Part shown: piece by piece, positions 1 to 23,042 of the stretch | Layout: every line of letters starts with the position of its first letter | How positions within the stretch are numbered: the first letter of the stretch is position 1 | From: Styela clava | Taxonomy: Eukaryota | Assembly: GCF_964204865.1 (NCBI RefSeq) | Contig: NC_135261.1 | Coordinates: forward strand, 6,882,001-6,946,000 | Direction: 5' to 3' | DNA: 64,000 nt | The notes under the pieces: generated by a model | Databases searched by the model: none | Seen by the model: only the letters and a program-made list of their open reading frames with translations | What the model was told of the DNA's origin: nothing | Position numbers and translations under genes: made by a program

Positions 1-173
1 GAGCAATATAATCCGGCCAGCGACACTTCACTGAATTAGATTAACAAAAAAGCTGTATTGACGATTATATTCTTCATGCGAATGACTTTCAACCTTTCAT
101 TTTGGCCCACGAGCAACAAAAGTTGGCCGACCCCCGCTCTACATGCTAACTCATTTATCAAACCCTTTTTCAG

Positions 174-3100
174 AAAAATTCAGCGTTCGACAACAGATGA
201 AAGATGCTTTATTAAAGCTGGTTGAGAACAGACCTGAAGACCCACTGCTTTTTCTTTCCAATTTCTTTGATACTGTTTCTTCAGAAAACCGAGCTGACAG
301 GGTACGATTTAGTATAATTTTTATAATGAATAAAGTATAATAATTATAATGAATCTAGAATTTATTCAGGGTTCAGAGAAATATACACCCTAAACTGAAA
401 GTTATACTGTAAAAGTACAGTTGTAAAATGAAATTGTTAAATAGTATCTTTTAATATTATTTATCTGATTAAGCTATTTTATTCTTGCTATGATGATGCT
501 CTTTTTGGCACTGTCTGAATTATAAGTAACTTCAGAGGTTTTCTCTGAATGTTGCTTGATTCATTGATGACAGTCTGATATATGCGCTCACTAATCTGAA
601 TGCAAGATCATCTTCCTCTGTGAAATGAGAGTAGAATTATCATTTAAATTGAAATTCATTCAAAAATTCAATATGGTATAATAATGGTATCATATAACAT
701 CTGTATGAAAAATTCAATTTCAAATGTGTCAAATTCTGTGGATATTTATATTTGAAGCTTTAATAAATGTATTAACTCCAAGCTCATATACGATAAACTG
801 CTACTCCAGAAGTATGTGCACCAAGATGGCGGACACCGGAACGTCGTATGTGTACCAGGTTAGGGTTAGGCCATAATTTTATTCCAATTTTCCTTATTTT
901 AGTTCTATAACGGGTTCAGGGACTAGCCAAGTGACTCCCATAGTATTTGTACCTGAAATTATGGCCTAACCCTAACCTGGTGCACATACGACGTTCCAGT
1001 GTCCGCCATCTTGGTGCACATACGTCTGGAGCGCCGATAAACTATGTATGTTAAAATGATGAAAATAGGAAAAAACAAATTTGTAGTCTTAAAATTTTTT
1101 TTCTGATCATTTATTTTACCTGAATTCTGTCTATCTTGGTCACATGCTCTTTTTTTTAATTTTTTTTCTAGATTTCTCATGCTGCAAGAACGTTAAAACT
1201 GTCTCATCATTCGAGTCCTGCTTTCAATAACAACGTTATATTGGCATACGATATTCTTAGTGCACCTAAAAGTATGATTTTCCTTTATAGTATATTTGAT
1301 TTGTTAGCAAATTTTTTCTAAACATCAATTCTTTGCAAACAAATTCTTGCTATGATGATGCACTTTTTGGCACTGTCTGAATTATAAGTAACTTTGAAGG
1401 TTTTCTTTGAATGTTGCTTGATTCATTGATGACAGTCTGACATATGCGCTCACTAATCTGAATGCAAGATGAATTGATGTTTGATTTCATAACGAGTCGT
1501 TTGTTAGAAAAATTAGAGTGTAGATTAGAACAGGAATGGTCAAAATCGAAATGGTCAAATTTACTATACCAAATACATTCTGAAATTATAATTTTGAATA
1601 CAGAATAAAACGGGGCATGTTCCACAGAAAATTCATATATATACCATTTGAAATGAATAAAATTATATTTGATTATGCAGAATGTTCGAAATAACGTTAT
1701 TCAATATTTTCTTATTAAAGTATAAAAAGTAAAACTAATTTCATTTTTTATCTGGCTTTCTCATGTCACAGACTCAAGGTGACAAATTTCCAAATGGAAA
1801 TATACTAAAAAATATTTCTAAATCAGGAATTAAATATATCGAATATGATTGATTTCAAACGATTACATGCAGCCTCTACTTGGTGAGGACCAATTTGTAT
1901 AAATTTTGATTGGGCCTTTCTGGTTGATACATCAATTTTCCATACATCAGTTTTCCCAATCCAAAATTGATTTCTCCAGCAAAAAGGTTTATACATTCTT
2001 CTTTCCTTCAGACCCAAGTTCGAAGAAGCTTGCAAACAAACGTTCAGGAATGTCTGGAGCAATACATGAAGAATTTATCAAGTTTATTTGTTCCGATGTT
2101 CCTGATGAATTAAAAGAAAATCTTGTTGATAAAGTTTGTTGCAAGTGGAATGAAATGGTTCCATATGAAGTTTTCAAATACAGTGTTACTGTAGCTTATG
2201 TTTTGTTAGGTACGTGTACATTTTTTCATTTATTTTGCAAATTGTGGGATTTTTTGGATATTTATGTCTTGAATAGCAAGTGGCGTTTGTTGTTGTGCAA
2301 GTTTGATCCCAATTGGCAATTACCGTACTTTTTTAAATTTATTTTAAATTTTCTTATCCGGTAATACTTGAAGCATTTGTTTTTGTCATCATAAATCTAG
2401 ATATAGATAGTGAGATATGCAATAAATTGATGGATTTTTATGATGTTTGAAAGATATCTTGAAATCTTATTATCTACATCTGGGGTGTGCAAACTGCGGC
2501 CCGCGGGCCAAATATGGCCCACATAAAGAAAATTGTGCGCCCGCGGAGAAGTGCCAGCTAGCAAAATCCTGTTGCAAAATACACAATGTTATAAAAACTG
2601 TATTTCTCATTGAATTCGTTTACAGTCGGTGTGACAATCAATTTGAATAGCAGTTTTTTCTTTAGAAATTTATTCGTTTTAACTCGCATTTCTGCAAGGA
2701 CCCCTAGCAATGCCGTAAGATCAATAACAAAATGAAACGATTTTTCGTGCCTGCAACTACTAGAAAAGCTATCTTAAATAAAGGTGCCGACCCACGGATG
2801 CACTCATTTACTTTGTATCTAGCCTTACTGTGATGAAGATTGCACACCCCTGATCTACATTATTATTTTTCTCAATAAACAAATGACTCATTTATTTTCA
2901 ATTTTTTTTATTTCTCAACAAACAATATTTCACAGATTTTATTGAACTCTCTGAAGACTTGTTCAAAACCCTGAGTGGAAAAAATGAAATGGCCGACAGG
3001 TTTGTTATTATTTGAATTTTTTGAATTTTCAAATCAGATCATTTGTAAAAATATTTTCTTGCTATGATGATGCACTTTTTGGCACTGTCTGAATTATAAG

Positions 3101-4161
3101 TAACTTCAGAGGTTTTCTCTGAATGTTGCTTGATCTATTGATGACAGTCTGATATATGCGCTCACTAATCTGAATGCAAGATTTCCTTTACTTTTTGAAC
3201 AATTTTGTCTTAGTTTATTTTGCCAAAATTACCAAAGGAGTTTTATATTACCGGTATTTCCAAATTTCCATCCCAATCAAGCTTAAAGTTGATTCCTTAA
3301 TTTAGTTTCCATATTTCCAGATATTTATGTGATACTACTGTTGAAACGTTCAGTGAATCGTTGCTTCGAAGCAACAATAATTTTGTGAAATCTGATGACA
3401 ATTTTTCTCACGCAATGGAGGCAGGAAAGAAATTGAGACCCGATAATCTGGCCTCTGCTATGTTGCAGGTATCGACATTCGACATCAATATTATATCTGA
3501 ATAGTGAATTTACTAAAATTTATCTTTTCGTCTGATTTTAATTTTGTAAATTGCAAATTTTGCATTTGCATTAAGATTGCATTGCTTATGCACATGATTA
3601 ATAATAATTATATTACTTGAATAATAATACAACTACCAAAAACTTTTTAAAAACTTCAGCAAAGATTCTCCATTTTATTTCAGATTTTTAGGAGTATTCA
3701 ATTATTAAGTTGAAAATTGAAATTTATTCAAGTTTGCATTTCTTAATTTGAAATTATTCAAAGATGTCTTAATAATTCCTATAATGGTAATTATGAAAAT
3801 TTTACTCACCAAATCTTGGAATGTCAATTTTTAATACAATATGAATTGTATTATTATAATTTATCAGTAAATTTGCAAGAAAGAGGGAAAAGCTATTAAA
3901 CATATTTCGACATTCTCTTAATTTCCCTGATACCCTTTCTATTCTGATGAATAGTTTTAAGAGTTATGACGATTTGAAGTCTGTGCTTTTATCTTGTTCA
4001 CACTATAAACTTGTGAATTCATTTGCGGTTACTTGACTGACACAATTCTTTAATTTCAGGCGAAAGAAGATGAAGGGGATGCAAAAAATTTAATGGACGA
4101 ATCAGAATTTCTTCATTTAATGACAAATGTTTATCTTAGTAATGTCAAATGTTTAAAATAA
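174..4161 (+). CDS. TPGS1: Tubulin polyglutamylase complex subunit 1; 5' exon(s) lie before the window. Exons 174-301, 1172-1271, 2012-2209, 2936-2999, 3321-3468, 4060-4161
   Basis: GT-AG joins keep one frame to TAA at 4159-4161. The translation has TPGS1 hallmarks: MKDALLKLVENRPEDPLLFLSNFF, LSHHSSPAFNNNVILAYDILS, EMVPYEVFK..V..AYVLLDF, EAGKKLRPDNLASAM, MDESEFL. Confidence 0.9.
483..607 (+). ncRNA. Intronic box C/D snoRNA, copy 1
   Basis: Terminal stem TCTTGC/GCAAGA, box C ATGATGA (490-496), D' CTGA, internal hairpin, C' TTGATGA, box D CTGA (596-599). Repeated at 1345 and 3057 while the surrounding intron sequence is unrelated. Confidence 0.88.
800..1035. mobile_element. Palindromic MITE of a Merlin-like family (GG...CC ends, 8-bp TSD). 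Other members at about 10500-10686, 17814-17934, 20517-20633, 24442-24544, 29019-29257, 33598-33809, 44064-44172, 47128-47335, 55239-55348, 56966-57169, 57757-57853
   Basis: Long TIRs (AGTATGTGCACCAAGATGGCGGACAC...GGTTAGGGTTAGGCCATAATT). TSD GATAAACT here, GAATATTG at 17814, GAATTGTT at 55239, AATTTGTA at 56966. The superfamily is inferred from the termini and TSD length. Confidence 0.8.
1345..1469 (+). ncRNA. Intronic box C/D snoRNA, copy 2
   Basis: Same 125-nt unit. Its hairpin substitutions (TTTGAAG/CTTTGAA versus TTCAGAG/CTCTGAA) keep pairing through G-U wobbles and one compensatory pair. Confidence 0.88.
2480..2852. mobile_element. hAT-type MITE
   Basis: TIRs CTGGGGTGTGCAA/TTGCACACCCCTG, GCGGCCC subterminal motifs, 8-bp TSD ATCTACAT. 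Confidence 0.85.
3057..3181 (+). ncRNA. Intronic box C/D snoRNA, copy 3
   Basis: Same 125-nt unit with all boxes intact, in TPGS1 intron 3000-3320. Confidence 0.88.
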
Positions 4162-4869: not shown

Positions 4870-7800
4870 ATGAAATTTAAATGGAGGTTGATGTGTTTTT
4901 ATTTTATAACTGTTCTTGGAATATTCGTCTATCTCAAGGTAAATATTTGTATTTTTTTCTTGATTTGGGAAAGAGATTTCACTCTGAATAGGGCTCTAGG
5001 CTAACAGTCTATTAAAGTGGTTGGTTAGGTCGCCTTCAAAATTTTCCAACTATTTTCCACAGAATGAGAACTTCAATTAATCTATTTGGAGTGATGATTC
5101 CCTGATCATCCAGTGGTGTGAGAGCAATTTTAGTTGGTCAATTTGACAAAGCAACTCACCAACAATAGCGTTAATACCAAACTAAAGTCTCCAATCTTTC
5201 AGACTTCCAATTAGATTTTGCCTGTCACAGCTCCCCTGGTGAAACTCTTGAGTTTACTTATTTGTTCTTCATTTTTACATGATTGGTTTTTTCTAGTTGG
5301 AAAATATAAACTTGACTACTAGCGATGTAAGGCAATCGTTCTCTAAGAAAAGATATTTTGAATGATACAGAGTTTTCTGTAGCTGTTATCTGAAGTTCAA
5401 AAGTCTTATTCAAAGTTTTTACATTTGAGATAATAGTTAATGGTAAGCCAATTGTCACAGAAATAATTAAAGCAAATTTTAGGCAGTTATGAATCTCTAC
5501 TATCTATAATAGATCATGAAAAAAGTCAAATAAACAGTGAAATGAATTTTAATTTATTTTTAAGGGATTTTTTCCAGTCAAGATTTCCAGAGTTGGTTTC
5601 AGTAGTGAAGATGATATTCCTCCTGCACCATCTGATAGTGATATATTACTTCAACTCAGTAGTGTGGATTTCCATTCTCCTGATAACACTCCTACTGTCA
5701 AATCAAAAGGTATAATTCGCTACCATATTTAGGTTAATAAGGAGATCACGCTGGAGTCGTTATTCATTTATTTACATTATGTTCAAATTGCACCGGAAAG
5801 TCCAATGAAACTGGATACATTCAAAATTTGTGTATTCAAAGAGCAAATTCTTGAATTGAAATGCAATTTAAAATATTTTCATTATCATTTCATTGAATCC
5901 TATCCTAAATGTCTAAAATCTGATAATTCGATGTACTTTATTGAACCTCAGACTCTGACAATGTAAAATTAATAAAAGTCGTAACTGAAGAGTATTTTAC
6001 ATTTCTGATTTGTGATATTTTTCCCAGTTTATTATGATTGGGTCTCGGAATATATTAGATTCCCCTTATTTGAAAATATTATTTCAGTATAATAAATGAC
6101 TAGATTATTGAAGTTTGGGATTAACAGTAGGTCCATCTATGTCTTTTCCTCTATTTACGCTCAAATGTGATCTTTCAATGATATTTTTTTACTGTGCAAC
6201 TAATGCCAAATTAAATTCTCATTTTCAATATAAGCTAGTTATTTACAATTATTATATGCTATGTTTTTCTGTGTGTTTCACTGTCTAATCAGCTTTGGTC
6301 TTTAATTAAGTTTTCTACACTTTATTCCCATTAATCAATAATAACGAATTACCTTTAGATCCACTACCTAAGAACTTCACAAAGCTTGTATTGGTCGTGA
6401 TCAATGGCCTTCGTGAAGATTTTGTTTTTGCTTCTCATCATTTGCACAATTTACCATTTATACACAAATTATTACTTGGAGGTGATGCAGCAGGTTTTAT
6501 TTCAAGAGCTGAGGCACCTACATTGACAATGCCTAGAATTAAGGTATGGTGTCTAGCAAATTACCAGAGCATTTAGGTTTATTAACAAAGAATTCTATTT
6601 GAAAAATTCAGTTTTGGAGTATTTTTTTTGTACAATTTTTTAATTTGACAATTAAATCATAATTTGTGACAAATTTTTTGTATTAAATTCATGATTTTTC
6701 TTATAAAATGCTGAAATCAGAATTCGGAATATCACGAATCTGTAGCAAAGTATTCCTTAATATATAACTCTATAATCCTATTTATTTAACTCTATTCATG
6801 GGTTTAATCAGTTATTTTTCAAGTAGTTCCATAATCTAGTAATATTTCTTATTTTAATAGTTGTTGAAATAAAATTTTGCTTGTGCATGTCAAATTCAGT
6901 TTGCCAGAAAAGTGACAACAAAAATAAATTTTATAAAAAAAAATTTGTTTCCAAATTTGTAGCCTATTTTTAAAATTGAAATATTTCTAATCTGATATTT
7001 TTCCCCATTTTTCTATCAGAAAATTCAGCAATAAAAGCATTGTACTAATAATATGAACTTATTTTCGTGTAAGCAAAGAACGCCATCATTACCAAATGTG
7101 ATATTTTTCATTTGCAATGCAGTTGAAATATGTTATTCCCAAATTCATCTAAAAAAAAATTTCAGCCAATTTGGTAACTTTGTATACATGCAGTGTCTGC
7201 TTTCCCAGTTACTGGTTCAGAAATTGTGTATTATTTCATAAAAAATGTACGAATTTTTGTCCACAATCTTACACTATTTCATGTATATTTCATCGCAGGC
7301 ACTTATGACAGGCAGTGTTCCGGGTTATGCTGACGTTATTTTAAGTCTCGATGCCGCAAAGGAATTAAAAGAAGATAATTTCATCAGAAATGCATTTTCA
7401 GCTGGAAGATCTATTGTATTCTATGGTGACGACACATGGACCAGGCTACATCCTGGGAAATTTAAAAGACAAAATGGTGTCAGCTCTTTCTTTGTGACAG
7501 ATTATACAGAGGTTTGACAATTTAATTTGGAGTTTTACGTATGAATTTTGCTTGCTTGGTGTTTTATTGACAGAGTGTTAATGACTGTAGCAGTGTCACT
7601 GTTTCAGTAGACTCTTTTTCAAATAAAATATTTCGAAAGTTTTGATATGTGATGCCTATGGTTAAGAGCGAAAATGTACAATTACCTAATGAAAAAAATT
7701 TGTGTTTGTTTTAATTATTTCAGTAAATTGCGCCCAATTACGGCCCACGTAACGATTTAATATGGAATGCCGAAGTGAAATAGTTTGACACGTAATGTTT

Positions 7801-10800
7801 TTACTATTTTGCATTCTAGATATCCCTCGACTTTTACATCATTATTATATTTAAACTCAATTGTCATACCAATTCAATTATACCAGTATCCTATCTATAA
7901 ATACCAGTATTAGAATTACATACGAGTCTCGTCCTTGTGGGCGCTCCTCTCTCCCGGCCCTCAAATGTTCCCCCGATTCTAATTTTAACCTCCCGGTCAA
8001 TCAACTTTGGGAACCACTGCCTTAAATGCTGTTAATGATCTCAATCCTATATTGAATATTATTTAATTCATTCAGGTTGATAAAAACATCACACAACATG
8101 TAAAAACTGAGTTGAACTATCCTGATCATTTTGATATGATGGTTTTACATTATATTGGACTTGGACATATCGGCCATATTGCAGGTATTTATATATCAGT
8201 GGATTAGGAATTTTGCAAACTTTTTCTGAATTCTTTATCCAAATGCGTTTATTACATTCGGAACTGATAATTATCAGTGTTCCTATCCAAACATGGACAG
8301 GTACAAATCTGTGGTTTTCCATGTGACATGCTGTCTCATCAACTCTTCTCTAAGCCAGGATTATTTATTCCTGAAAAATGCCCAAAGCTAGGTTTTCGTG
8401 ACCTATGAATTGACCTCTAAACCAGCATAATCCGCTTTGGCCTAATTCAGTGATCGGCAAAGTTTTTTTAGTCGAGGCCCAAATAATAAAATGAAAAAGG
8501 TTTTATAGCACAATTCAGTTAGGCCCACCAGATAATGCTCGACAACCCACAGTCTGCTTACTACTGGCCTAGTCTAATATACCATTCCTACTGTTTGGAC
8601 TTTGGGTAACCAATAGCCATTTGACTTTGACTTGGTTATTGATTTTGTGTATATTTAACGACTGATATTTTCATTTTTAGGAGCAAAAAGTCCTCTGATT
8701 GACTCTAAACTCAAAGAAATGGATTTTGTAATTCAACAGATATATGAAACATTGCAGAAACATGTAAGTGTATGCGTTATTCCTTAGAATTTAGAGAGAC
8801 AGGGAGAGATTTATTTCCGTCAACCAGGAAAAACGAGCATTGCAATAATAATAATAAAAATATACAAAAACAATCTAAGTTTTTCAGTATAGGCTGGGTG
8901 GAGCAATATGACCATATGGTCAACCGAGTCAGCTCCCCTTATGTTTGTATGAAAGATTTACGTTATGTTCTGTGATAATAACGCTACAAGGCTCTTTTTA
9001 AATTTTTCAAAAGGGAACAATTTTTGTTCCTCTACTTAGTGGCCGCTGTTACCATCTTTCCTTGCTTTTTGGCTTGAACCAATGAACCAATACCGTTGCG
9101 CAACATTGTTATCGCTATATTTGAGCATTACTCTCTTGTTTTGATATATGAGTATTTATTATTATAATCACTTTATGCACTCTAATTTATTTTTCAAAAT
9201 TGCATATAATCATCGATTTTAACTTTATAAAATTTTAAGTTATACTTGTCTAGCTTATATTGTCAGTATAGAAAATTGAATGCTTGTTTTTCCCTGGCTA
9301 TCTTTAACATATAGATAATCAGGCGTAACACAGGCAAAGATTGAATAAAACATAAGAGTACTAACAGTGCCATATATATTGCGCTTCTTGAGTTCTTTGT
9401 TTTTACAAAAATTAGACATTCCAATTTTCAAGTTTGATATATAAATGGTTTCAAGGCAAAACGGCAAATGTTTGATTTTATAAAAAAGTATTACAATAAA
9501 TGGGTGCGATGTAGGTTAGTACCTAATCATAGATTAAAGCAATATTTACTTAGTATTCTAATAAAAGTTACAGAACTTTTTTTTAGTTGAACTATGTATA
9601 ACTGAGGAAGTCTGACCTTGGTCAGACAGAATGTTACAGAAATGTATTTGTGTTAATGTGCAGTAAGACGCTTGAATCCCTTAGGAAAGTTGCAGAGGTT
9701 TAAAAATATAAAATATATGTTTTTCTTATTTTCTAAAAGCAGCTTTTTCAAGTTTCAAAAGGGCATGTTTTTTGGGGTTTTTGCAATCAATATTTCTTTT
9801 CTTCTATTTATATCTATTCCATTTATTTCGTGTAGACACAATTTTGATTTACAATTTTTTTACTTCTTCAGGATGCTGAGAAAAACTCTCGCAGTCTCAT
9901 TGTGGTGACAGGAGATCATGGTATGACAGATAAAGGTAGTCATGGAGGAACAACACATCATGAGAGAAATACACCGTTATTGTTCTTGAGTCCTAAGATT
10001 AGTTTGGAATCTGATATGTAAGTGGAAATATAGTCCAATTTGATCAAACTTTGCTATTATTGATTTATAATACAAAAAGGGATTATTCTAGATATTTTAG
10101 AATATTAGATTACTTTTTTTCTTAAAACATTTAATATTCCAAAAATATGTTTTCAGAATGATTTTTTAATGTGTATTGTTGAAATATAATATAAACTTTG
10201 AATATTAATTTAAAACTTTTTTCACTATTAATAAACACCATTCAAAGATCTTTTTGTTTTGCCAATATTGGGTTTGCTTTTATATATATTTATAGTTTAT
10301 ATATTTATTCATACAGCTTCACACAAGTACGAATAGATTTATGAAAAAACTTAAATTACGGTTTCGTGTTTTATGATTGTTGCATCGTACATCAAAATAT
10401 GCCAATTTGTATAAGTCATTTTTTACTCTGAATGATCAAATCCATTTATATCAGTCCCAGGCTGGCATTATTGTGATTATAAGACTTTTATCTTTTGTGT
10501 GTGTACCACTATGGAAGAAACTAATTTTGTTCGCCTATTTTAAATCGAGTTGTGTAAAGGGACTGAAGCCTATGGGCAGAGGGTGTATTCACTTGGCTAA
10601 CACAGACAGTCCCCGAACTCCCAATAAAACTAAAATGAGGAAAATTATGGCCTAATCCTAACCTGGTACACATACTACGGGAGTACAGTCTTTTCTTTTG
10701 TATCATCCAATACTTCTTTTCAGAAGTGATATCCCAACTGAAGTGCAACAGATAGATCTTACATCAACATTATCAGTGTTGTTTGGTTTACCAATACCAA

Positions 10801-13800
10801 GAAATTCAATGGGAAAACTCATAACACCTTTAATACAGGTAACTGATAGAATAAAGGAATTTTGCTGTACTTACAATGGCTATATCAATGGATGGATCAA
10901 TATCAATGGATTGGGAAATGGAAGTTGGAAAGCGGAAATCACTTTTTCTCCAACTACTGTAAAATTTTTATCCATTATGAATCTATATCCTACAAGATTT
11001 TTTTCAAATCATTTCAGGGGACACCTGTTAATTTTTGAAAGACTCTTGACTTTGTGGATTCGCAATTTCGCCTCCAATGAAAAATGTCAAACCCCGCCTC
11101 ATCTGCCCTGGAAAATGTATTCATGATTTTACAAACACTATTAATTTGCTGCCATCTGCAATTTTATTTTTTATTTTCCCAGAGACTAAGTCCTGCAGAT
11201 CAGCTTCATGTGTTAGAATACAACTCGCATCATTTACTGACATTAGCTGGGAAGACTGGAACTCTTGATAAAGAACAGTTTGGATTTGCAAACCCTCTCC
11301 AACTATATGGGTAAAATATTAGATATTCACCAAGATCACTAAGATATTCACACTTCCAGGGGTAAATTTTGCGAACAGGTAAGTATGTGACCGAATGTCA
11401 CCAATAACGATATTGCATATTGAAACGTTGTGTTTTGCATAAGACAGCGAGCGGCTCCCAAACTTTTCGTTCGTGCGGCGATAAATTATCATGGAAAAAA
11501 CTCACGGCACACCTACACGAAAAAAAATGCTGCCTCTGAATAAAACTCAATTTTGTGATTGTCAGTGTGTACTTTTATGAATTTTAAAGTTTGGAATCAC
11601 GAGGCCTAAAAGAATAATGACAAAAGGTCAACTCTTCTTTCTCATATATGTCTGATATTCCTTTGAAATACTGAAAAATTCACTCATTTTCGCTAAACTC
11701 GGTCCAGAAGATAAATAAACTGCAGCTCGTGAAATTGCAACAATTAGTTTCTACCTCTATTGTTACATAACAATGGAGGCAGACACTGTGTAACAGAAAG
11801 TAAACGACATAGAATGGTAAAACGAATTTATTTTGTTTCCTATACACATCATTTAAAATAGAAACAAAACATTTATGGTAAATACAATAAATATTTTACT
11901 TTGGAATATGATGCAATGTCAATCATGTTTTACTACTCACCCAATTACCACTTTTAGTGAAGGACTTCTCTCTCATGCTACTTATCTCCAACATCAAGAT
12001 ATTGCCGACAATAAATTTGAAGATGCAAAAAAATCCTATGTTTCATCACAGAAGATCATATCTGATGAATTGATGTATAATATTGCATCGTATAATTATA
12101 TGTACATGGGGATTGGAATGGTTTTAACATGGCTGGTGAGTTTGATAACATTTAATATGGTTATTGGTAACTGTTCTTCAATTTGGTATTGAATTTGAAA
12201 ACGGTTTTGGGGATAAACCAAAGCATAATGGAAGCAGTCATTTATGGTATTTGAAAAAATATGGATCTGAAGGCCGTTTGTCAAGCACCTGATTGCTGAA
12301 AAGATCAGCAGACAACTATGTTCCAATGCTTCATAAAAAGCATTCCCATGAATTAAAATAAAACAGTCAAATATCAATTGAAGTATTGACTCCAATAGCC
12401 CCAATAAAAAATGTAAAAAAAAAAGAAATTTTAGCAGATTTGGCCATGTATCTGTAATGAAAATATGAAATTGATTGATCTGTTAGTTGAGGAGAAAACA
12501 GATTTTTTCTCAACGAGAACAAAAAAAAAACATTGCAAAACATCCACTTTGCCTCTAATGTCAGTTGATTGAAGTAATATAGCATTTCTCCGAATTTTCA
12601 GGGTTATTTTGCTGTAGCAGTCTCTTGGGGCCAAATTGTGTTAATTCATAAAGCTCCAACGAACACTGACGAGCCTCGAGACGCACCCTCCTCACCTGTA
12701 ACCTGGGGTGTACTTGCAACGTTGGGTACTATAGTTCATGGAATGAGTCTCTTATCAAGCAGTTTCCTTGAGGAAGAACATCAAACTTGGTATTTTTTGA
12801 CAACAACGTTTCTGGCAATCCTGTTTTGTAGTGTTATTATGGAAATTGTTGGCAAAAAACTTGGAATGGCTGAGACTATTCAGAAAGGATTTTTTTCTAG
12901 AAGTAAGTTAGAATTGCATTGTTATATATATTTTGCTTTAAAGAGGATAGATGAATAAGTGTAGAAATTTTGTTTTCACAAAATGGTGACAGTTACGGGT
13001 GATTCAACGAGTCTTCCTGCATACTGACACAAACGTATTTTTGTGTCGTTCTGTGTGGCCAAGATGTCTGCCTGCAAACCCAATTGATAAAACAATATTT
13101 GTGATCTGTTTTTATTTTTAAATAATTTTAATTAAAATTTGGACGTTTTTGAAATTGGAAGTACATCATTTTGTTTGCTAATTTTGTACTTTTGAGTAAT
13201 TCATGGCAATTTGCAACAAAATTAAATATATGTAACTATAAGCATAACATTGGATCTATTATTTATAAACAAGTCGGCTTTTGCTGACTTTGACTTAACT
13301 TACATTAAAATACCTTTAGTGCACATTTGCCACATTGGAAACTTGCCTTGAATTCACAATTTTATATTTTAGAAAAATCTTCACCAACCCGCAAAGTTCG
13401 AGGAAAAGAAGAGTCGATGGAACTTCTACATCGAGCTAAATCAGATGAATCTGTCGACTCAACTTGGGATTTTGTTGAGTTAGAAACAAACACCGAGGAG
13501 GAGTTTACTTTCGACAAAACAAAGAAGGGTCCTCAAAATGTGAGGATATTTTCATTTTTTATCAAGCTAGGATTAATGTACAAGCATAATTTTTGAGAAA
13601 TATCAAGTCCAGGCATCTGCAATGAATGATTAACTTTTTATCTATTCTTTCGTACCTATATGAAAACGGAATTATAAATAATTGACATAAAATTATGTAT
13701 GTTTCCAATTGAGTGATTAATTCCACTCATTTGAGGCTTTCATGTTTTTTTGGTTGGACTTCTTGCTCTCCAGTTTTTCAACTGGTCTACTTATTCATCC

Positions 13801-16800
13801 TTTTAGGATTCAGACATTCACATAGTTGGAGTTTTAATAGCAAGTCTTATTGCACATCGAGTACTTCGAGCTTGGAATAGAACGGGCATACAGTATGTTG
13901 ATTTACCAGATATTGGTAAGTGTGCTACCAGATTTCTGAAGAATATTGATAATTGTGCATAAATTACTGTTTAAATATTCCCCAAGCTCTTCAAGAGTGA
14001 GACCATATTGTTTGGATCTATTATATATCATCCTCTCGTGTTTTACATATAATTCCTCGTTGACTTCTTTACTAATGTATAGGGTATCCATAAAGAAACT
14101 TTTTCAAAATTGCAAAGGGAATTTATTGATACCATATATTATTTTGGCCCTCTCAGATGTAATAAATGATGTAAAAGTACCATTACTGATTAAAAAACAA
14201 ACCTGTTAAAAGATATTGAGAACTGACTTCATAACAAATTGAAAGTGTAAAGGGACTTTATGGACACCCTGTAAATAATGCCTTTACCATATCAGACCCT
14301 AATGATAACATTATTCTGTATAGATATTTGAAACGCTGTCAAAATATATCGTTCATATTATATACACACAGTAACCATTAGTCAGTAAGCAGGAATCACT
14401 ACAGTAAGAATAGTCCATTTCGCAATGTGAAAAATTATGGTGAATCAGCATTCATTTTGCTTATTAAAATTCGACTTCATTACCGTGTTGTTGTATTCCA
14501 GGTGATTGGCTCAACAGGCCTGATAACAGCCCAATACTGGGGCTGACCCACTTAATCAGTCTTATCAGTATTGCCATTCTACTAGAGATGATAACGAATG
14601 GAAAAGATATCTGGAGAAGGGGTGTGGTGTGGGTTGGACTCGGTTGTGTGTTCTGGTACAGAAGCGCTGTGATGCGGGCATTGAGGGGTGAAGAAATATC
14701 AAATGGAGACCATGCTATGTGGGTAACTTAGTGTTCAGATTTTGTCTTCAAAAGATACCAGTATTTGGTAAAAGTGGAAATAATATTGTTATTGTTCACC
14801 ACCTCACGCAGGGCGATTCCGAATCGAAAAGATTCTAGTCTTTCCCATGAATAGTAGCTCCTTATGCATTTTAGATATCAGTACTTATACAGGCTTTGTT
14901 TAGAGCGAAAAGCATGAATGAGCGTCGCATAACAAAAAATGGTACTGAATGGTTACGTATACTTTAGTGTAGTATACTACACCGTAGGCAAGAAAATATA
15001 AATTTCAACCGCACTTTTGTAATTTGAATTCCAACCTCTCGACTTTAAAAAAGGTTCTATTCAAGCATCCGCTGTTATCTAACGATGTGTAAGGGAGTTA
15101 GAAAGAACCGGAATCTTTCATAGTCGTCATAGCTTGTTCAATTTACTGCACCCTGGGTGAGGTAGTGGATATGGGATTTCAACACTCCCCTGGGGGGTAA
15201 TGCGATGCCAACAAGTTTTTTTTTTCAGTTTATGATAAAATATTCCTGGTTTTCTTCATTGCTTGTTTTTCCCTGAATGTTTCAATATATAAACATAGCA
15301 GGCGTAACGCAGGCAAAGATTATTTGAAATGCTTCTTGTTATCTCAGTGGTGATTCTCTGCTGGGAGAAGCAGTGTTTCATACATGATATAATAAATTTT
15401 GTTGAATTATTTTCCTGTCTAATTAAGAATGTAAATGGACATGGCTAATAATTAAAGCTCGTTGCGCTGCATTTCGTATTATGGGTTCGAATCCTGAGCT
15501 TGATAATCATGTGTGATAGGATGGATTGTTACTCACTTTCTCTGTCACAGTTGCAAGGCCCACGTAACTGTTTCATTGCCATCCAATACCATGCGTGATG
15601 CGTCTGAAATGATTACCTGGTGTTTTATTCGTATATCCGACATGGACTCGTACTAGACAAAAAACAGTGGTTCACTATATCATGACTTTTTTTTTTGAGA
15701 TTTGAGATTTTATCATCACAGATTCTTAAAACACTTTGGCTTCGTATAGTTTATATCAGTATAATGACTTGGGAGTATTCGTAGCCGGAATTGTGAGAGA
15801 ACTCCGTTGAGTGTGACTTACACCTAAGAATTATATGATGTAGTACGGTGAATAATTATTTTGTTAAACCTGGTATATTTCCTGTTTTCAGTGGCTTGTT
15901 ACCGGCTTTGCTGTCTTACCTATCAGTTGTGTTAGTTCTTGGAAGAGGAATATTTTTGAAATCAAGAAAGATATCTGGTGAGTGGAGAAATTTTTATGAT
16001 ATGTTTAATAATTAGAAGAAGCTCTATTTAGAACTCGGCTTATACTACTAATTCTTTGATATTGAATCCAAATCTTCATTGATTTACTCATAAGCAAAAG
16101 ACTGGGATTGTCAAATTGGAATAATATACAGTGATACCTTTACTAGTCGAACATAATTCATTCATGATTGGTGTTTGAGTAGTGAAACTTTTTTGCTAGA
16201 GAAAACGATGGTAATTATCTTTATACAATCTTACGCTTTCCAAAATATTCATGACTTTTTATTTTTCAAAAACATGGAAATGATAGACTTTGCCATGCAA
16301 TACTGTAACGCAAAATCATACACTCGAACAGCATTCTCGTATTTCACAGTAATTTCTTTTTCCAACAAATCATCAGTCGAACACCAATCCTGAACGATCG
16401 CGTTTGAAAACCGAGGTATCACTGTATATGCTTTTATGTTCTATATCAGGAGTGTGCAACCTATAATACAGAAGAGCCATATACAAATAACTGGGTAAAA
16501 CCGAAGGCCGCACCTTTATTTGACATAGGCTCTCTCTGGTGTTGCGAGCACAAAAATTTTGATTATTGATCTTATGACGTAGATTGGTCGATTCGCCCGA
16601 GCTAGCTGTTAGGGCATTGTAACGTCATGAACATAGATGAAAAAAAAAATTGACTCAGTTGCAGTTACAGGCTCGGAATTACTCGCGCGTACCAGATTAA
16701 ACTAAATTGAAAACTCATTTCGCGGGCCTCACAATTTTTCCTTGTGGGCGCATTTTGCTTGCGAGCCACAGGTTGCATGCCTCTGTTCTATATTATTGCC

Positions 16801-19800
16801 CTGATGAAGTTATTATTGACTTTGTGCCAGTTCTGCCTGCATTTGCTATTTCGATTTGATTGTTGAACCTTTTTTAATTTCCCAGGAACTAAAACAATGG
16901 ACTACATCATTTCATCAGTCATATTGTTGAGTTGTTTGCTTTTACGTCCCCACAACGTTTGGGCATTAGTCATCAACCTCTATTTGTATTGGTCAGTTTT
17001 TCGTCTGCTCTGGCCAATCGTGGAGGAGGATTCTACTTATTCAAATTTACAAATTGGAAAAATTGTCCTCAGGACTACACTGTGTTACTGGTTTGGACAA
17101 ATGTCCTATTTCAGTTTTGTAAGTAACTTTTTTGCACAGCCTTTTTTCACATTGTCTTCGAGGCGCAGTTCTTACCACTTCATGGCAGCTCCTGCCACGA
17201 ACGAACGGCGGCAGCTCTTGCCATGGTTTTATAGCGCTATTCAGTAATCAGTATTAACGGTATATTCACAAATAACAGACCAGATTTTAATTGATCATGC
17301 GGAATTATATCTACTTAAACCCTAACCCTACCCCCACATTCATCAAAACTGTATCCATAAGAAAAACGTTCCAACTTACCCAATATTCGTCACCATAAGG
17401 GACAGCCCTTTCTTTACAGCCCACCTGCCGTAGTTACGGCAGCAAAATTTTACCTGCCATTGGTTTTCAATTTGCTGCCGCGGTAACGGCAGCCTGTCAT
17501 TGGTTTGTGGCAGCTACAAACTCAGTCGCCATTGGTATGGTATGGAAATACCGCCATGGTTTTGCGGCAGCTGCAGACGCCACAGAATACTTAAAACTGC
17601 ACTTGTTGTCTTCCCTACTAGCGGCCTTTTTTATTTAAGTAGCCATCATTTTTGAAAGAACCAGAATATTTCCGGTTTTGCAATGGATTACACTCAGGCG
17701 AAGTGGTGGAATAGCATATCAAATACTGTTCTAAAAAGCCATCAATTCATGTGTCCTAAACACAGTCGAAGCGATAAATTGAGGTTTATCTGTATAGTAA
17801 ACATAGAATATTGGGTACTCTCGCAGTATGTGTTACCAGGCTGCCCATAGGCTTTCGTCCCTTCACACAACTTGATGTAAAGTAGGCGAACAAATTAGTT
17901 ATATCCATATTGATACACATACTTCTGGAGTGCCGAATATTGAACCTCATTTTGATGTTAGAAGGTACTTTTGGTTTAATTTGAGTACAATTCCCAATAT
18001 TATGATATTAATTCTGACTCTGAGGAATTTGTAATTTCAACTTTGACTCAAATGCCAATAACAACGCTTCGTGTTATCTGGGGTAAACGTTACCCATTTG
18101 TTGCAGTCGTCTAATATCTAAAACTAGAACGGGTTTGTTGATTATCACAATATTCCAAGAACAAGAATGGTGTGGCGCATCGTGCTAAGCGTTAGGAATA
18201 CGCTCGCCACCGCATCTCTGATTACCCATCGTGGGAATGCAGGTTCGAATCCCATGCGGGGATGGTCATGTGCGAGAGGATTGCTGGACTCCTCGCCGCC
18301 ATAGGGTGGTTCACGTAACCTCTGGTCGGTTACGGCTTCCTCCACCATAATGTCCATGTCTCTGAAAACAAATAACTGGCTAACTAATCCCATACCCGAC
18401 CTGGACTGGTAACCGGACAAGAGGCCGTGGTTTGCCATATGATTAAGCCGTCTTATCAAATTTCCTCTTCCCCAGAATAAATATGTAAATCCTAAGTCCC
18501 TCCGAACCCCATAAACCCCAACACTGAGAATAACCCTCTCACTTTCTTTCCTCTTTTTTTTTATTTTCAATTTTATTTATTTTAAACCAGGGTAATTCCA
18601 ACAGTCTAGCTTCTATAGATGTCTCTTCTGGTTTTGTTGGAATGTCACATCATACTGGAACACTGGAAGACTCAATTGTTAGATGCTTGATCATATTTAC
18701 TACTTATATTGGACCAATGACTTGGACAATGCTTTGTCTAGCGGACAGCGTGGACGTCACTCTACAAAGTATGTATTAATTGCTGAATATAATAAATAGA
18801 CTGTTGATAATATGATTTTTAATGCATCAGACAGTTAATGTTTAAAAAGGCGCTCTCGTGGGTAAAAGAGCACAATGTTTTTATAATCATCTCGCCCCGT
18901 TAAAATCTTTCTCTGTTTTGCCTGATGCCTCTATTACTGTAAGGCTAAGCGATAGCCGCATTCTCTTCTCTTGTCAGCTGGTGATGAACATTTGACCAGT
19001 GAGTTCAGGGTTGCTACAACCTGTCAAAGCTGTGTTAGCAAACTGTGCAAGAACTCAAAATTTTAATGTCTCACCAAAATGTTAAATAAATAAAATTTAG
19101 CATTGTGAGAATTTTTTATTCGTTGTGTGCATGGAAAATACTAAAGTTTTTGAGTGGCCCAGCTAGATGTCTAAAGTTGGCTATATGTAGGCTTACCATA
19201 CGTCCCGCTTTTCAGCGTTTTGTCCCACCGTCCCGATAAGTCAGTCAAAAGTCCCGCTTTTCTACCATGATACACAAACATGTTCTCGTTACTGTTGTTT
19301 CTGTGTAGTGCAGCGCTAGCCTACTTACTGAAGGTGAATGCGTTCGTTTCCTGCTGATTCCCATTCATGGCAGACACATCGCATGTAAAACCAATACTAA
19401 TTAGTCTAAATTTGAATTATTTGTACCCGTATCGTTACCGTCAATTCCTTCCAACTGAACCCGATATTTGGACAGAGAATATGCGCATGAAATTTCGATA
19501 ACAATATGGTCAATAAAGACAGCCGGGACAGCTTTAAATGTAGGAATGTAGGCCTGTGTAGTAAAATTGGAAAATGTGAAGTTACAAAATCGTTGTCTTT
19601 TGAGGTGTCCCGATTTGTCACAAAAATATGGTAACCCTAGCTATATGGTCCATTGACAAAAATGTTGCACACCCCTGCCTTAACATGACAGTTCTTATGT
19701 GCTTATTTCACGGACCAGGAGGCACAATGTCAATAAATTGCGTGAGTTGGAGTTTTGTCGATACCTAAGGTGCACCAGGGTGTATGACACAATGGTTTAT

Positions 19801-20339
19801 AGGAGTATCTAGTTACTGTACGAAGCTTATTAAACAAAAAATTTTTTAGAGTTATTGTATTTTATTCAAAAGGGAACGTAAAACGGCGGTTTGTTTCTAT
19901 AATAATAGTACTGGTATTATTTTGTAGGCAATAATGCATAAAGCACTACCTGACCCATACATTAGGCGCACCGACTCATAAGGCACATGATCGATTTTTA
20001 GAAAAAATTATTTAAAGTGCGCATTATTGTCTGTAAAATACGGTATATGATATTTTCACTCATTACAAGTATATATTTTAATCTGTATCTTTGTTTTTTT
20101 CATCTACAGATTCCACTTCGAAGCAATATTCCAGACCTGCGTTGTTAGCTGTATTCTCTACGTTCGCATTTCTTCGTATCACACCAACTGCGTTTTATCT
20201 CATTCTTATAACAGCCATGAGATATCATCAATTTGTGTGGAGTGTGTTTGCTCCTAAGTTACTATTTGAAACTGCTTCTACTGTCATTTATGGTGCGATG
20301 TTGCTGGCTGCTTCCATAGCTGCTAAATGGATAACTTGA
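4870..20339 (+). CDS. PIGG: GPI ethanolamine phosphate transferase 2, about 963 aa. Exons 4870-4938, 5565-5709, 6359-6543, 7299-7511, 8076-8184, 8681-8763, 9872-10017, 10724-10838, 11183-11310, 11958-12135, 12602-12902, 13373-13539, 13807-13915, 14502-14718, 15892-15977, 16886-17118, 18591-18768, 20110-20339
   Basis: Continuous spliced frame. Motifs: LKGFFP, PTLTMPRIKALMTG, FYGDDTW..L.P, SFFVTDYTEVDKNIT, GDHGM..GSHGG, QQIDLTSTLSVLFGLPIPRNSMG, SSSFLEEEHQTWYF, LLLRPHN, GNSNSLASID, HQFVWSVFAPKLLFE. The exon 14 donor (14718, GTGGGT) was chosen to preserve frame. Confidence 0.92.
14080..14271. mobile_element. Tc1/mariner-type MITE
   Basis: TIRs AGGGTATCCATAAAG/CTTTATGGACACCCTG flanked by TA. Confidence 0.65.
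16129..16424. mobile_element. Tc1/mariner (pogo/Tigger-like) MITE
   Basis: TIRs CAGTGATACCT/AGGTATCACTG with TA on both sides. Confidence 0.7.
16447..16785. mobile_element. hAT-type MITE
   Basis: TIRs CAGGAGTGTGCAACC/GGTTGCATGCCTCTG, 8-bp TSD TTCTATAT. Confidence 0.8.
18169..18492 (+). mobile_element. tRNA-derived SINE. Related copies at about 30745-31020 (-), 42778-43050 (-), 43760-43945 (+), 15440-15680 (+, degenerate)
   Basis: Pol III A box TGGCGCATCGTG and B box GGTTCGAATCC. A shared body (GGATTGCTGGACTCCTCGCC...GGTTCACGTAAC...TTCCTCCACCAT) is dispersed through the window. Confidence 0.8.
19188..19639. mobile_element. hAT-type MITE
   Basis: TIRs TAGGCTTACCATA/TATGGTAACCCTA, GTCCCG subterminal repeats, 8-bp TSD GCTATATG. 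Confidence 0.8.
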
Positions 20340-23042
20340 TCGATTGTCTCAATTTCACACACAATATACCAATTTGTTCAATACCATTTATCTATATGGT
20401 TACAATGCATTGAAATGGCGAATTTATACCATATTTTTTATACAGCGCGACTTATTCACCCTCATATGCCAAACAAAGCACTGGACAAGAAGGCGCAGAA
20501 ATCTAAAAATATGTAGGGAGCTGCCATTTTGGGCTATTCATACCAAGATGGCGCACAACCTGCTAACCCTAACCTGGTACACACACTAGGTTCAGGTTGT
20601 GCGCCATATTGGTACGAATACTACGGGAACACCCCATTTCGTAGGGATCAGAATCCGGGACTGGTAACCAGAAAAGTTTGCTGTATATTTTGTTTGATAA
20701 ATATGAGATACAGTGATATCTTTTGGAATTTCGTCATTTTATATTATTGACCTTGTCGTAGCAATAGATGGTTTAGTATTAGCTGTTCTACTCTCCTATT
20801 CCATTTATTATGAATTTCTCATTATACTTTGTAGCTCTCATATATCGAAGCTTTGCGGTAATAGTGTTGTATGCATGTTGTTGAGTATAGGTCACTGACA
20901 ATGTGTTGATAAGCTGTCCTCAATTTGAAGCTGTTATGCAGGAATCTTCAGAATGGCCAAGTTTTCTATTCATTGGTCCCAATACTATGCAGTGATTTGT
21001 TACAAAGTAGAAATTTTAATGATGTTGTTTTAATACATTTCGCTTACACAGACATTTTCACAAGCTAACACCTATTGTTATTACAACAAAATGGAGTAAC
21101 ATTTGGAAGGATTTAATGACCCACTGAACTGGGCATAAGAGATCCAGTTCCCTTTTCGGCAACTTGAACAACAAAACACAAGTGACTCCGCTTTTTTCAA
21201 AAAACCCATGTAATATTTGTTACACTAATTTCAGAAGATATTAACCCGATCCAATATTGGTGTTTCAAATCCTACTGCCAGTGATCTGGCCGGATTTGAG
21301 TTACACATTTGCAAAGTATTTTTAGTTGGTTGTTAAATATTGTTTGTAGTTGTTACTGTTTTATTTATTTAGACAGAAATTATAAGATGCAATTTTTCTA
21401 ATGGTGTTCTTCATCTATAAAACCATAATCGCGTATTGAATGTGGAAAATCTACATGATCGCTGAGGTTGTAGTTGTTCATAGATGATGAATAAACTCGA
21501 GCGTTTCTGCCAAGCACACACACAAATATTGTTCTCAGAAATGTCTCTAAAATAGAGGATGCCATGTGCGATCACAGTGATTTTAGTGTTTACATAACAC
21601 AACCATATTAGGGTTAGACACCAAATTCGATGAAAATGTCTTTTTGGGGTTAAACGCGTACCAACGTGGCACCACAGTTGAGATAACGTTCCACAGCCTA
21701 CATTTATGAGATCGCATACCAAAGTGGTTCCGATCGTTCCTTTGGCGTTTACCGAATGATTTTCAGCAAAACGAGTCTACTCGGTATATTCAAAATTACT
21801 TGGAATCCTATAACGTTGAGGTATTCGAATATGAACGCTCGTGCTTTTTTACCGTCGGTGTGGTTAGGACTTGGCACTTTAAACCGCATTAAATTGTTCG
21901 AGATGATTCAAGACGAAAATGTAACGGGAACAGTTTTAAATTATAATTAGGTTCTGAAATCATCGGCTCTACCATTGAATAGCTAGCTACCTTAGCTAAT
22001 CATGTGTCTGATTTTGTAACCTAAGTGTGGCCATGTTTCGACACCTTATTTAGAATTTCTCTTCTCCCTGATGAATTTGAGAAATCAGATTTCGTAATAT
22101 TCGCAAATAACTTCGATGCAAGTTATAATGATGACGCGAAACTTGTCCTTTTTCGTGACAGTGTGCGAAGCAACATCTCCGCAAAAGTGTACTTAGTGAG
22201 GGCGAAAAAGTGGTCATTTACGTCATAAATTTTCCGAGGTTTTCAGAACCACTCTCTTATCGAAACAACTAGTGAAAACTTGTTAGAGAGGAAAGTAAAT
22301 TCAGGAATATTTCAAATTCATCATGCCCAAACGTGAGTCAACAAAAGTAGGAAGGATGTTATTTTACCCCATGAAGATACCGAATCTTAGTGATTTTATA
22401 TGTCACAGGTTCTTAAGACAATAAAACACGACATTCGGTGTCGTGTTGTCTTTATATACAGACAAAGCAAGTATTTGTTATGATTTGTGATTTATAACTT
22501 GATAATGTGTTGAATTCCCATGTATTAGGTCATTTCGTCTTCTGTGGTTTAGTAGGATGAGAAACATTGCGGTTAGTTCGATACAACTCTCTCGCCGAGG
22601 GAGGATTTACTGATTAGAGTTTAGCGACCTGTTTTCAAGTTGTTCAATCAATCTGCGTGAATTGTTGATCTCTAGTAATTCTTGAATAGTTTGAGGTGAG
22701 AAAATCTACTTTTACCAAATGCCAGATATACAGACACTGCTGAAAAAATATCACGAGTGCAATAAAACAGATTGGGACAGCAGTGTATCAATTAGAGTTA
22801 ATGCGGGACTCACTGCGACTGCATAGGTTACAGTGTCCTGAGACCGCCCTTGTTTTCCACTTGCGACGTCGAGGAGTCTTGTTTTTCTCATTGTCTGCAT
22901 CTAAATTTGCGTAAAGGGCGAGGGTGCTTCTAATTCTAAGGACAACAAAGGCAGCTAATTCCGAGTCAGGATTTTGACTAACAATTACTAGCTATAAATT
23001 TTTTATTAGATATTATTATCCATATTCAAAACTCTTCAAACA

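What the first reader, a model, noticed from the sequence alone, without database searches (positions are those of the whole stretch)
6403..8165. PIGG has lost two predicted catalytic metal-binding aspartates
Seen: VINGLREDF (AAT at 6403-6405) where PIGG/Gpi7 normally have IDALR.DF, and HYIGLGHIGH (GGA at 8163-8165) where they normally have HYLGLDHIGH. The Thr nucleophile motif, GDHGM and GSHGG are kept, and the 963-aa frame is intact. Known: these Asp residues ligate the two metals in alkaline-phosphatase-superfamily folds. Inference: a pseudoenzyme, altered metal chemistry or a scaffold role, which would imply GPI anchors lacking EtN-P on the second mannose unless another paralog compensates.
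Basis: partly seen in the sequence, partly recalled or inferred. Interest (0 to 1): 0.7.

Follow-up and report, generated by a model that had tools for sequence, protein, structure and literature searches.

The report
Conserved but disarmed sea-squirt PIGG
The sea squirt Styela clava keeps and splices an intact gene for the GPI-anchor enzyme PIGG in which two otherwise invariant aspartates, predicted to bind its two zinc ions, are replaced, so the protein is likely dead or nearly dead as an enzyme and likely kept for a non-catalytic job such as binding its partner PIGF.

Summary
Observation confirmed. The window holds the 18-exon, 963-aa PIGG of Styela clava. It has Asn87 (AAT) and Gly234 (GGA) where 336 of 336 and 382 of 383 covering homologues have Asp. 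An older RefSeq version of the protein and spliced contigs carry the same residues, so this is no assembly error. The two positions map to one ligand of each zinc in the NPP-type site. The gene is under purifying selection (14 synonymous, 3 non-synonymous exonic variants). No second PIGG was found; PIGO, PIGF and two PIGN paralogues are present, the transferases with all ligands. New here: the nearest relative (an unnamed protein) keeps both aspartates but has lost another ligand (His238Leu); in this clade conserved columns changed in the catalytic domain (24 of 88) far more than in the membrane domain (3 of 47); a model supports PIGF binding (0.70, best control 0.00). Best reading: a pseudoenzyme kept as PIGF partner or GPI binder (0.58). 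Main rival: residual one-metal activity (0.25). No activity was measured. The scan noted the same two losses before in another genome (e1-9891023, unchecked).

The parts
4870..20339 (+). PIGG gene, start codon to stop, 18 coding exons, 963 aa
4870..4938 (+). exon 1: N-terminal membrane helix (aa 1-23)
5565..5709 (+). exon 2 (aa 24-71)
6359..6543 (+). exon 3 (aa 72-133): first ligand motif and nucleophile motif
6403..6405 (+). codon 87, AAT = Asn, in place of the invariant Asp of the nucleophile-side metal site
6526..6528 (+). codon 128, Thr nucleophile, kept
7299..7511 (+). exon 4 (aa 134-204): YGDDTW and SFFVTDYTEV motifs, kept
8076..8184 (+). exon 5 (aa 205-240): D-x3-H ligand motif
8163..8165 (+). 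codon 234, GGA = Gly, in place of the invariant Asp of the second metal site; two base changes from any Asp codon
8175..8177 (+). codon 238, His ligand, kept here; Leu in the sister protein P0018
8681..8763 (+). exon 6
9872..10017 (+). exon 7: Asp283 (9914-9916), His284 (9917-9919), His292 (9941-9943), all kept
10724..12135 (+). exons 8-10 (10724-10838, 11183-11310, 11958-12135): end of lumenal domain, helical linker
12602..12902 (+). exon 11 (aa 458-557): SSFLEEEH motif and membrane helices; most of the predicted PIGF contact
13373..13915 (+). exons 12-13 (13373-13539, 13807-13915): disordered loop; helix with Arg631/Arg634, part of the predicted PIGF contact
14502..20339 (+). exons 14-18 (14502-14718, 15892-15977, 16886-17118, 18591-18768, 20110-20339): rest of the PIGO_PIGG membrane region

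Best explanation
This is the only PIGG gene found in Styela clava, spliced and under purifying selection, in which one predicted aspartate ligand of each of the two zinc ions is replaced, so it is likely a pseudoenzyme that no longer adds ethanolamine-phosphate to the second GPI mannose and is likely kept for a non-catalytic job done by its membrane domain, most likely binding PIGF. Shown: the substitutions, the intact spliced frame, selection, the paralogue inventory, the different ligand loss in the sister protein. Inferred: the ligand roles (motif order and fold shared with NPP enzymes), loss of activity, and the job. The mechanism I commit to: the folded but inactive protein sits in the ER membrane in complex with PIGF, the subunit for which PIGG and PIGO compete in mammals, and so sets how much PIGF is left for PIGO, possibly also holding GPI intermediates. 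I put loss or near-loss of activity at about 0.7 and the PIGF-partner job, given that, at a little over half.
For: Asp invariant elsewhere: 336 of 336 and 382 of 383 covering homologues, including Ciona, Phallusia, Clavelina. The model's lumenal domain matches di-zinc NPP/PafA enzymes best (Z 25.6, rmsd 2.9-3.1 A, 255-262 residues), whose seven site residues run D, T, D-x3-H, DH, H (PMC6052110 passage), the order of 87, 128, 234/238, 283/284, 292. In MCR-1 the alanine mutant of the matching carboxylate drops activity to vector level (PMC5216409 passage); in PafA zinc-ligand mutations were highly deleterious (bioRxiv 2020.11.24.383182 passage). The sister protein P0018 (100/100 support) has His238Leu and an eroded SFFVxDxxEV loop: two lineages lost different ligands, none lost in the other 392 proteins. 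Conserved columns changed in this clade: 24 of 88 catalytic, 3 of 47 membrane (Fisher p 0.003); in the four other tunicate-clade proteins 12 of 88 and 9 of 47 (p 0.46). Three losses among 14 site residues fit drift at the protein's average rate (5.4 expected, p 0.15). Selection: 14 synonymous, 3 non-synonymous of 17 exonic variants, pN/pS about 0.06. PIGF model: score 0.70, best of 3 controls 0.00; mark reached by 51 of 78 solved complexes and 2 of 108 mismatched pairs (eukaryotes: 39 of 65 and 2 of 126); runs agree in at least 77% of contacts, partner pLDDT at least 75. Interface residues S511, E515, R631 are invariant in 74 of 74 non-tunicate rows and kept in Styela and P0018. PIGG competes with PIGO for PIGF (PMC7254680 passage).
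Against: No activity was measured. Styela keeps five of seven site residues and 75 of 89 conserved catalytic columns, including the whole SFFVTDYTEV loop. For Styela alone the catalytic-versus-membrane excess is not significant (13 of 88 vs 2 of 47, p 0.085). Asn can still bind a metal (own knowledge), and D38G, D352G and H353V of PafA left measurable activity. Both lineages keep Thr128, Asp283, His284, His292. The clade pattern rests on two species, one a single unnamed contig product. PIGG-PIGF is a textbook pair, so the model's pass may reflect family likeness and does not show that this copy binds; an active PIGG would pass too.
Confidence: 0.58

Rival explanations
1. Altered metal chemistry: the protein is still an active, slower transferase (or does only the first half-reaction) with one metal at the nucleophile side, held by Asn87, Thr128, Asp283 and His284, as proposed for mono-zinc bacterial phosphoethanolamine transferases.
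For: Both lineages lost a ligand of the same, distal site non-conservatively (D234G; H238L) while the nucleophile-side site is kept or changed conservatively. DFT models indicate a mono-zinc mechanism may be feasible for MCR-1. 75 of 89 conserved catalytic columns are kept; strong purifying selection includes catalytic exons.
Against: Asn87 removes the carboxylate whose match in MCR-1 is essential, and the distal His395 of MCR-1 is essential too. P0018 has also lost most of the SFFVxDxxEV loop. No other of 392 homologues manages without these ligands.
Confidence: 0.25
2. Hand-over of the job: PIGG is dead, and Man2 modification has passed to the second, divergent PIGN paralogue, so anchors are normal. 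(Compatible with the best explanation for PIGG itself; it changes only the consequence.)
For: Two PIGN-family genes about 1 Mb apart on contig C8; catalytic exons 49-56% identical, the long membrane exon 30%, no stops in the 8 aligned exons; both keep ADGLRA, TESRP, GIDSNGH, ADHG and G[SG]HG.
Against: Known PIGN acts on Man1 (PMC7125958 passage). Expression of the second copy and its presence in other ascidians were not tested; nothing ties it to Man2.
Confidence: 0.12
3. A gene in early decay: activity became dispensable and the gene is drifting towards a pseudogene with no new job.
For: PIGG loss is mild in other animals' cells: minor effect in PIGG-knockout HAP1 cells, wild-type RNAi phenotype in C. 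elegans. Long stem branch (1.1 changes per column).
Against: Open frame in Styela and P0018 after about 0.5 changes per column on each branch; pN/pS about 0.06; 45 of 48 conserved membrane columns kept in each.
Confidence: 0.05
4. Artefact or allele: assembly error, a rare allele, RNA editing back to Asp, or a hidden active second copy.
For: AAT could become GAT by A-to-I editing. Three differences of run X7 in exon 5 were not itemised. Contigs drop rare variants. The assembly may be incomplete.
Against: An older protein version with 12 other differences has both residues; spliced contigs show no G at 6403; GGA needs two changes to give Asp and editing cannot do it. Two protein searches of the genome found only this locus and PIGO, the latter at 44-48% identity.
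Confidence: 0.02

Closest known systems
PIGG / Gpi7 (GPI ethanolamine-phosphate transferase 2) of other animals; nearest named: Clavelina XP_076823896.1, Phallusia CAB3264862.1, Ciona XP_078494079.1
   Same: Architecture (N-terminal helix, lumenal AP/NPP domain, PIGO_PIGG membrane region), Thr nucleophile, four of six metal ligands, 51-54% identity in the catalytic domain, tree position among tunicate PIGGs, predicted PIGF interface.
   Different: Asp87Asn and Asp234Gly; more changes at conserved catalytic columns (14 of 89 against 5-7 of 89). RefSeq still names the Styela protein 'catalytic subunit-like'.
Unnamed protein P0018 (Logan assembly, 968 aa)
   Same: Sister on the tree (100/100); 61% identical in the catalytic domain; shares changes at conserved columns 127, 149, 194, 209, 211, 223, 231, 242; also lacks a ligand of the distal site.
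   Different: Keeps both aspartates; has His238Leu and has lost most of the SFFVxDxxEV loop.
NPP/ENPP phosphodiesterases and PafA (di-zinc alkaline-phosphatase superfamily)
   Same: Fold of the lumenal domain (Z about 25) and the order of site residues.
   Different: They are hydrolases with all six ligands; 16-19% identity; no multi-pass membrane domain.
MCR-1/EptA-type bacterial phosphoethanolamine transferases
   Same: Same chemistry class (Thr-linked phosphoethanolamine), same superfamily fold; a precedent for a weak second metal site.
   Different: They keep an essential carboxylate at the position where Styela has Asn (the mapping is inferred from motif order).

Membership tests
PIGG/Gpi7 orthologue | N-terminal helix + lumenal AP/NPP domain + PIGO_PIGG membrane region | tested here: met
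   Pfam PF01663 and PF19316 over cut-off; model pLDDT 83.8; fold matches
PIGG/Gpi7 orthologue | Groups with PIGG sequences, distinct from PIGO and PIGN | tested here: met
   Nested among tunicate PIGGs (no PIGO row in that tree); PIGO and PIGN are separate loci with their own motifs
Active GPI-ETII enzyme | Thr nucleophile | tested here: met
   Thr128; Thr in 361 of 361 covering homologues
Active GPI-ETII enzyme | Six metal ligands D, D-x3-H, DH, H | tested here: not met
   Two of six replaced (N87, G234)
Active GPI-ETII enzyme | Complex with PIGF | tested here: inconclusive
   Model only: 0.70 against best control 0.00, 51 of 78 solved and 2 of 108 mismatched pairs reach the mark; textbook pair
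Active GPI-ETII enzyme | Transfers EtN-P to Man2 of GPI | not testable with these tools
   Needs complementation or lipid assay
Pseudoenzyme | Catalytic residues lost in an intact, expressed, selected gene | tested here: met
Pseudoenzyme | No measurable catalysis, with a shown non-catalytic role | not testable with these tools
   No assay
Mono-zinc phosphoethanolamine transferase (MCR-1/EptA-like chemistry) | Nucleophile-side site with a carboxylate, Thr, Asp, His | tested here: not met
   Asn87 at the carboxylate position in Styela (met in P0018); role of Glu246

The most novel reading that the evidence does not exclude
A whole ascidian clade has turned PIGG into a conserved pseudoenzyme, losing different zinc ligands in different lineages, which exposes an undescribed non-catalytic function of PIGG (PIGF titration or GPI-intermediate handling) that may exist in all animals; these chordates either build GPI anchors without Man2 ethanolamine-phosphate or have handed the step to a diverged second PIGN.
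Probability: 0.35. Interest if true: 0.75.

Novelty: new variant of a known kind. Interest (0 to 1): 0.56.

Why it matters
PIGG is known only as an enzyme; its loss causes an inherited neurological disease, and its product is the preferred bridge for some GPI proteins such as CD73 and netrin G2 (bioRxiv 2020.11.26.399477, abstract and discussion read). A chordate lineage that conserves the protein but not its metal site is a natural separation of function. It makes two things directly testable with an existing cell assay: which ligands PIGG needs, and whether catalytically dead PIGG still regulates PIGO through PIGF, which would bear on the difference between null and missense patient alleles. 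It also flags a RefSeq entry named 'catalytic subunit-like' as probably inactive.

Tried and rejected
More close relatives: a search of shorter proteins, of 50%-identity representatives and of metagenome contigs (57 loci, none closer to Styela/P0018 than to other animals) found none beyond P0018. PGAP5/MPPE1 (would test co-loss): not among 24 Metallophos matches, and a recalled motif pattern gave 3 matches against 5 in the control, none of them PGAP5-like; both are too weak for a spliced gene, so no conclusion. Pfam searches of the genome are poor tests for a second PIGG: PF01663 missed PIGG and PIGO altogether, PF19316 missed PIGO. No run is on record as RNA; RNA status is inferred from GT-AG joints. 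Literature: no paper held all of 'ascidian, PIGG, GPI anchor' or 'pseudoenzyme, GPI biosynthesis, PIGG'; searches showed no mutagenesis of PIGG metal ligands in their listings; subscription papers and supplements were not searched. RNA editing and a changed genetic code were considered and rejected (see rivals). Rfam gave no match in window 1-22000 at E 0.1.
Full report
Observation. AAT at 6403-6405 and GGA at 8163-8165 are in the window as stated, in VINGLREDF and HYIGLGHIGH. An 18-exon model from 4870 to 20339 gives an open frame of 963 aa, identical to RefSeq XP_039252035.2 of the ascidian Styela clava. The residues are Asn87 and Gly234; Thr128, His238, Asp283, His284 and His292 are kept.

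Is it real? The older RefSeq proteins differ from the window's at 12 places but carry both residues. Spliced contig X1 matches exon 3 with no difference and exon 5 with one, at 8142. X3 and X7 show no change at 6403-6405. X3 does not reach codon 234, and three differences of X7 in exon 5 were not itemised, so codon 234 rests on X1, the older proteins and DNA runs that may be the window's source. GGA is two base changes from an Asp codon, which no single error or A-to-I edit gives.

How unusual? I pooled the listed hits of three homologue searches and one representative search (10 of 10, 120 of 886, 120 of 385, 150 of 4068). They are the best-scoring hits, redundant, rich in vertebrates, and not sorted into PIGG and PIGO. 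Of 393 non-Styela proteins, Asp stands at 87 in 336 of 336 covering it and at 234 in 382 of 383, the exception being a fragment end. Ciona, Phallusia and Clavelina have all seven site residues.

Are they metal ligands? No PIGG structure was found. The AlphaFold2 model (pLDDT 83.8) matches NPP enzymes and PafA best, at Z 25.6, rmsd about 3 A over 255-271 residues. NPP3 binds two zincs with D168, T206, D326, H330, D373, H374 and H483 (PMC6052110, passages), the same order and spacing pattern as positions 87, 128, 234, 238, 283, 284, 292; the ENPP6 alignment places the first Asp and the DH motif alike. The first Asp belongs to the zinc at the nucleophile (PMC4438272, passages). That D-x3-H and the last His form the other site is my own knowledge. 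So each metal loses one Asp, by inference. Mutating the matching Glu246 of MCR-1 to Ala abolishes activity (PMC5216409, passages). Zinc-ligand mutants of PafA are highly impaired, though three left measurable activity (bioRxiv 2020.11.24.383182, passages).

A clade pattern. The only other protein with a lost ligand is P0018, an unnamed assembly product and the sister of the Styela protein (100/100). It keeps both aspartates but has His238Leu and has lost most of the SFFVxDxxEV loop. At columns at least 95% conserved in 74 non-tunicate rows, Styela differs at 14 of 89 catalytic and 3 of 48 membrane columns, P0018 at 21 and 3, four other tunicate-clade proteins at 5-7 and 1-7. After dropping one column in each domain that changed in all six, the clade's union is 24 of 88 against 3 of 47 (p 0.003), the other four's 12 of 88 against 9 of 47 (p 0.46), contrast p 0.018; Styela alone gives p 0.085. 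An earlier unreviewed note of this scan (e1-9891023) reports the same two losses in another genome; I could not check it, and look-ups by sequence found no look-alike. I had stated my reading before seeing it.

The gene is not decaying. Of 17 exonic variants taken and from the 40 of 402 rows shown, 14 are synonymous and 3 not; pN/pS is about 0.06, p 3e-7. This is a small within-species sample.

Paralogues. Two protein searches of the genome found only this locus and one on contig C9, which is PIGO by its motifs and has all ligands. PIGF is present as an open 238-aa frame. There are two PIGN-family genes on C8, both with all catalytic motifs and no stop in the aligned exons. The second is divergent (49-56% in catalytic exons, 30% in the long membrane exon) and is the one candidate for compensation; known PIGN acts on Man1 (PMC7125958, passages). 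PGAP5 could not be settled.

What would a dead PIGG do? PIGG and PIGO are both stabilised by PIGF and compete for it (PMC7254680, passage citing Shishioh 2005; the original was not read). A model of PIGG residues 400-963 with Styela PIGF scored 0.70 against a best control of 0.00; the mark was reached by 51 of 78 solved complexes and 2 of 108 mismatched pairs (eukaryotes 39 of 65 and 2 of 126); runs agreed in at least 77% of contacts and the partner's pLDDT was at least 75. The contact uses residues 509-544 and 627-634, among them S511, E515 and R631, invariant in 74 of 74 non-tunicate rows and kept in Styela and P0018. This is a textbook pair, so the pass may show family likeness only, and it does not separate a dead from an active enzyme.

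Verdict. Most likely a pseudoenzyme kept for a membrane-domain job, with PIGF binding the best candidate (0.58). The main rival is a one-metal enzyme with residual or half-reaction activity (0.25): both lineages hit the distal site hard and kept Thr128, Asp283, His284 and His292, and a mono-zinc route may be feasible in MCR-1. Hand-over to the second PIGN (0.12) alters only the consequence. Decay (0.05) and artefact (0.02) are unlikely. It is a PIGG orthologue that fails the ligand test for an active transferase: a new variant of a known kind. Searches of the held library found no paper on ascidian PIGG or a PIGG pseudoenzyme; subscription journals and supplements were not seen. Papers seen: passages of PMC9168625, PMC7125958, PMC5216409, PMC6052110, PMC4438272, PMC7254680, PMC13409885, PMC11740278, PMC3302757 and bioRxiv 2020.11.24.383182; abstract and first part of the discussion of bioRxiv 2020.11.26.399477. 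A ready assay exists (PMC11740278), so the claim can be settled by one complementation experiment.

Noticed in passing
window 483-610, 1345-1472, 3057-3184 (+): Three near-identical intronic copies of about 125 nt with C (ATGATGA), D' (CTGA), C' and D boxes and a closing stem: a likely C/D snoRNA family. No Rfam match at E 0.1; folding z-scores -3.3 to -4.7. The stretch before box D looks complementary to a conserved 28S rRNA segment (recalled, not tested).
   Followed up: partly
window about 130-4160 (+): Host gene of these RNAs, just upstream of PIGG; looks like TPGS1 (recalled); only a weak RIIa-type Pfam hit below cut-off (E 0.0024).
   Followed up: partly
G000:C8:22982774-22989010 (-) and C8:23941081-23949875 (+): Two PIGN-family genes with the same exon order, both with intact catalytic motifs; the second is strongly diverged in its membrane part.
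   Followed up: partly
window 10724-10729: Tandem splice acceptor (CAG/AAG) at exon 8 explains RefSeq isoforms X1 and X2, which differ by one Ser.
   Followed up: yes
L004 / G000:C9:15782514-15783470 (-): Intronless ORF of about 315 aa just upstream of PIGO that looks like a homocysteine S-methyltransferase (recalled).
   Followed up: no
G000 C2:15.67-15.69 Mb, C4:14.24 Mb, C18:11.94-12.06 Mb: Tandem clusters of NPP-family (PF01663) genes, at least three on C2 with a long first exon.
   Followed up: no
window 10634-10686, 14205-14273, 17200-18460, 20560-20600: High-copy short repeats (MITE-like) in PIGG introns, with contig depth thousands of times the exon depth.
   Followed up: no
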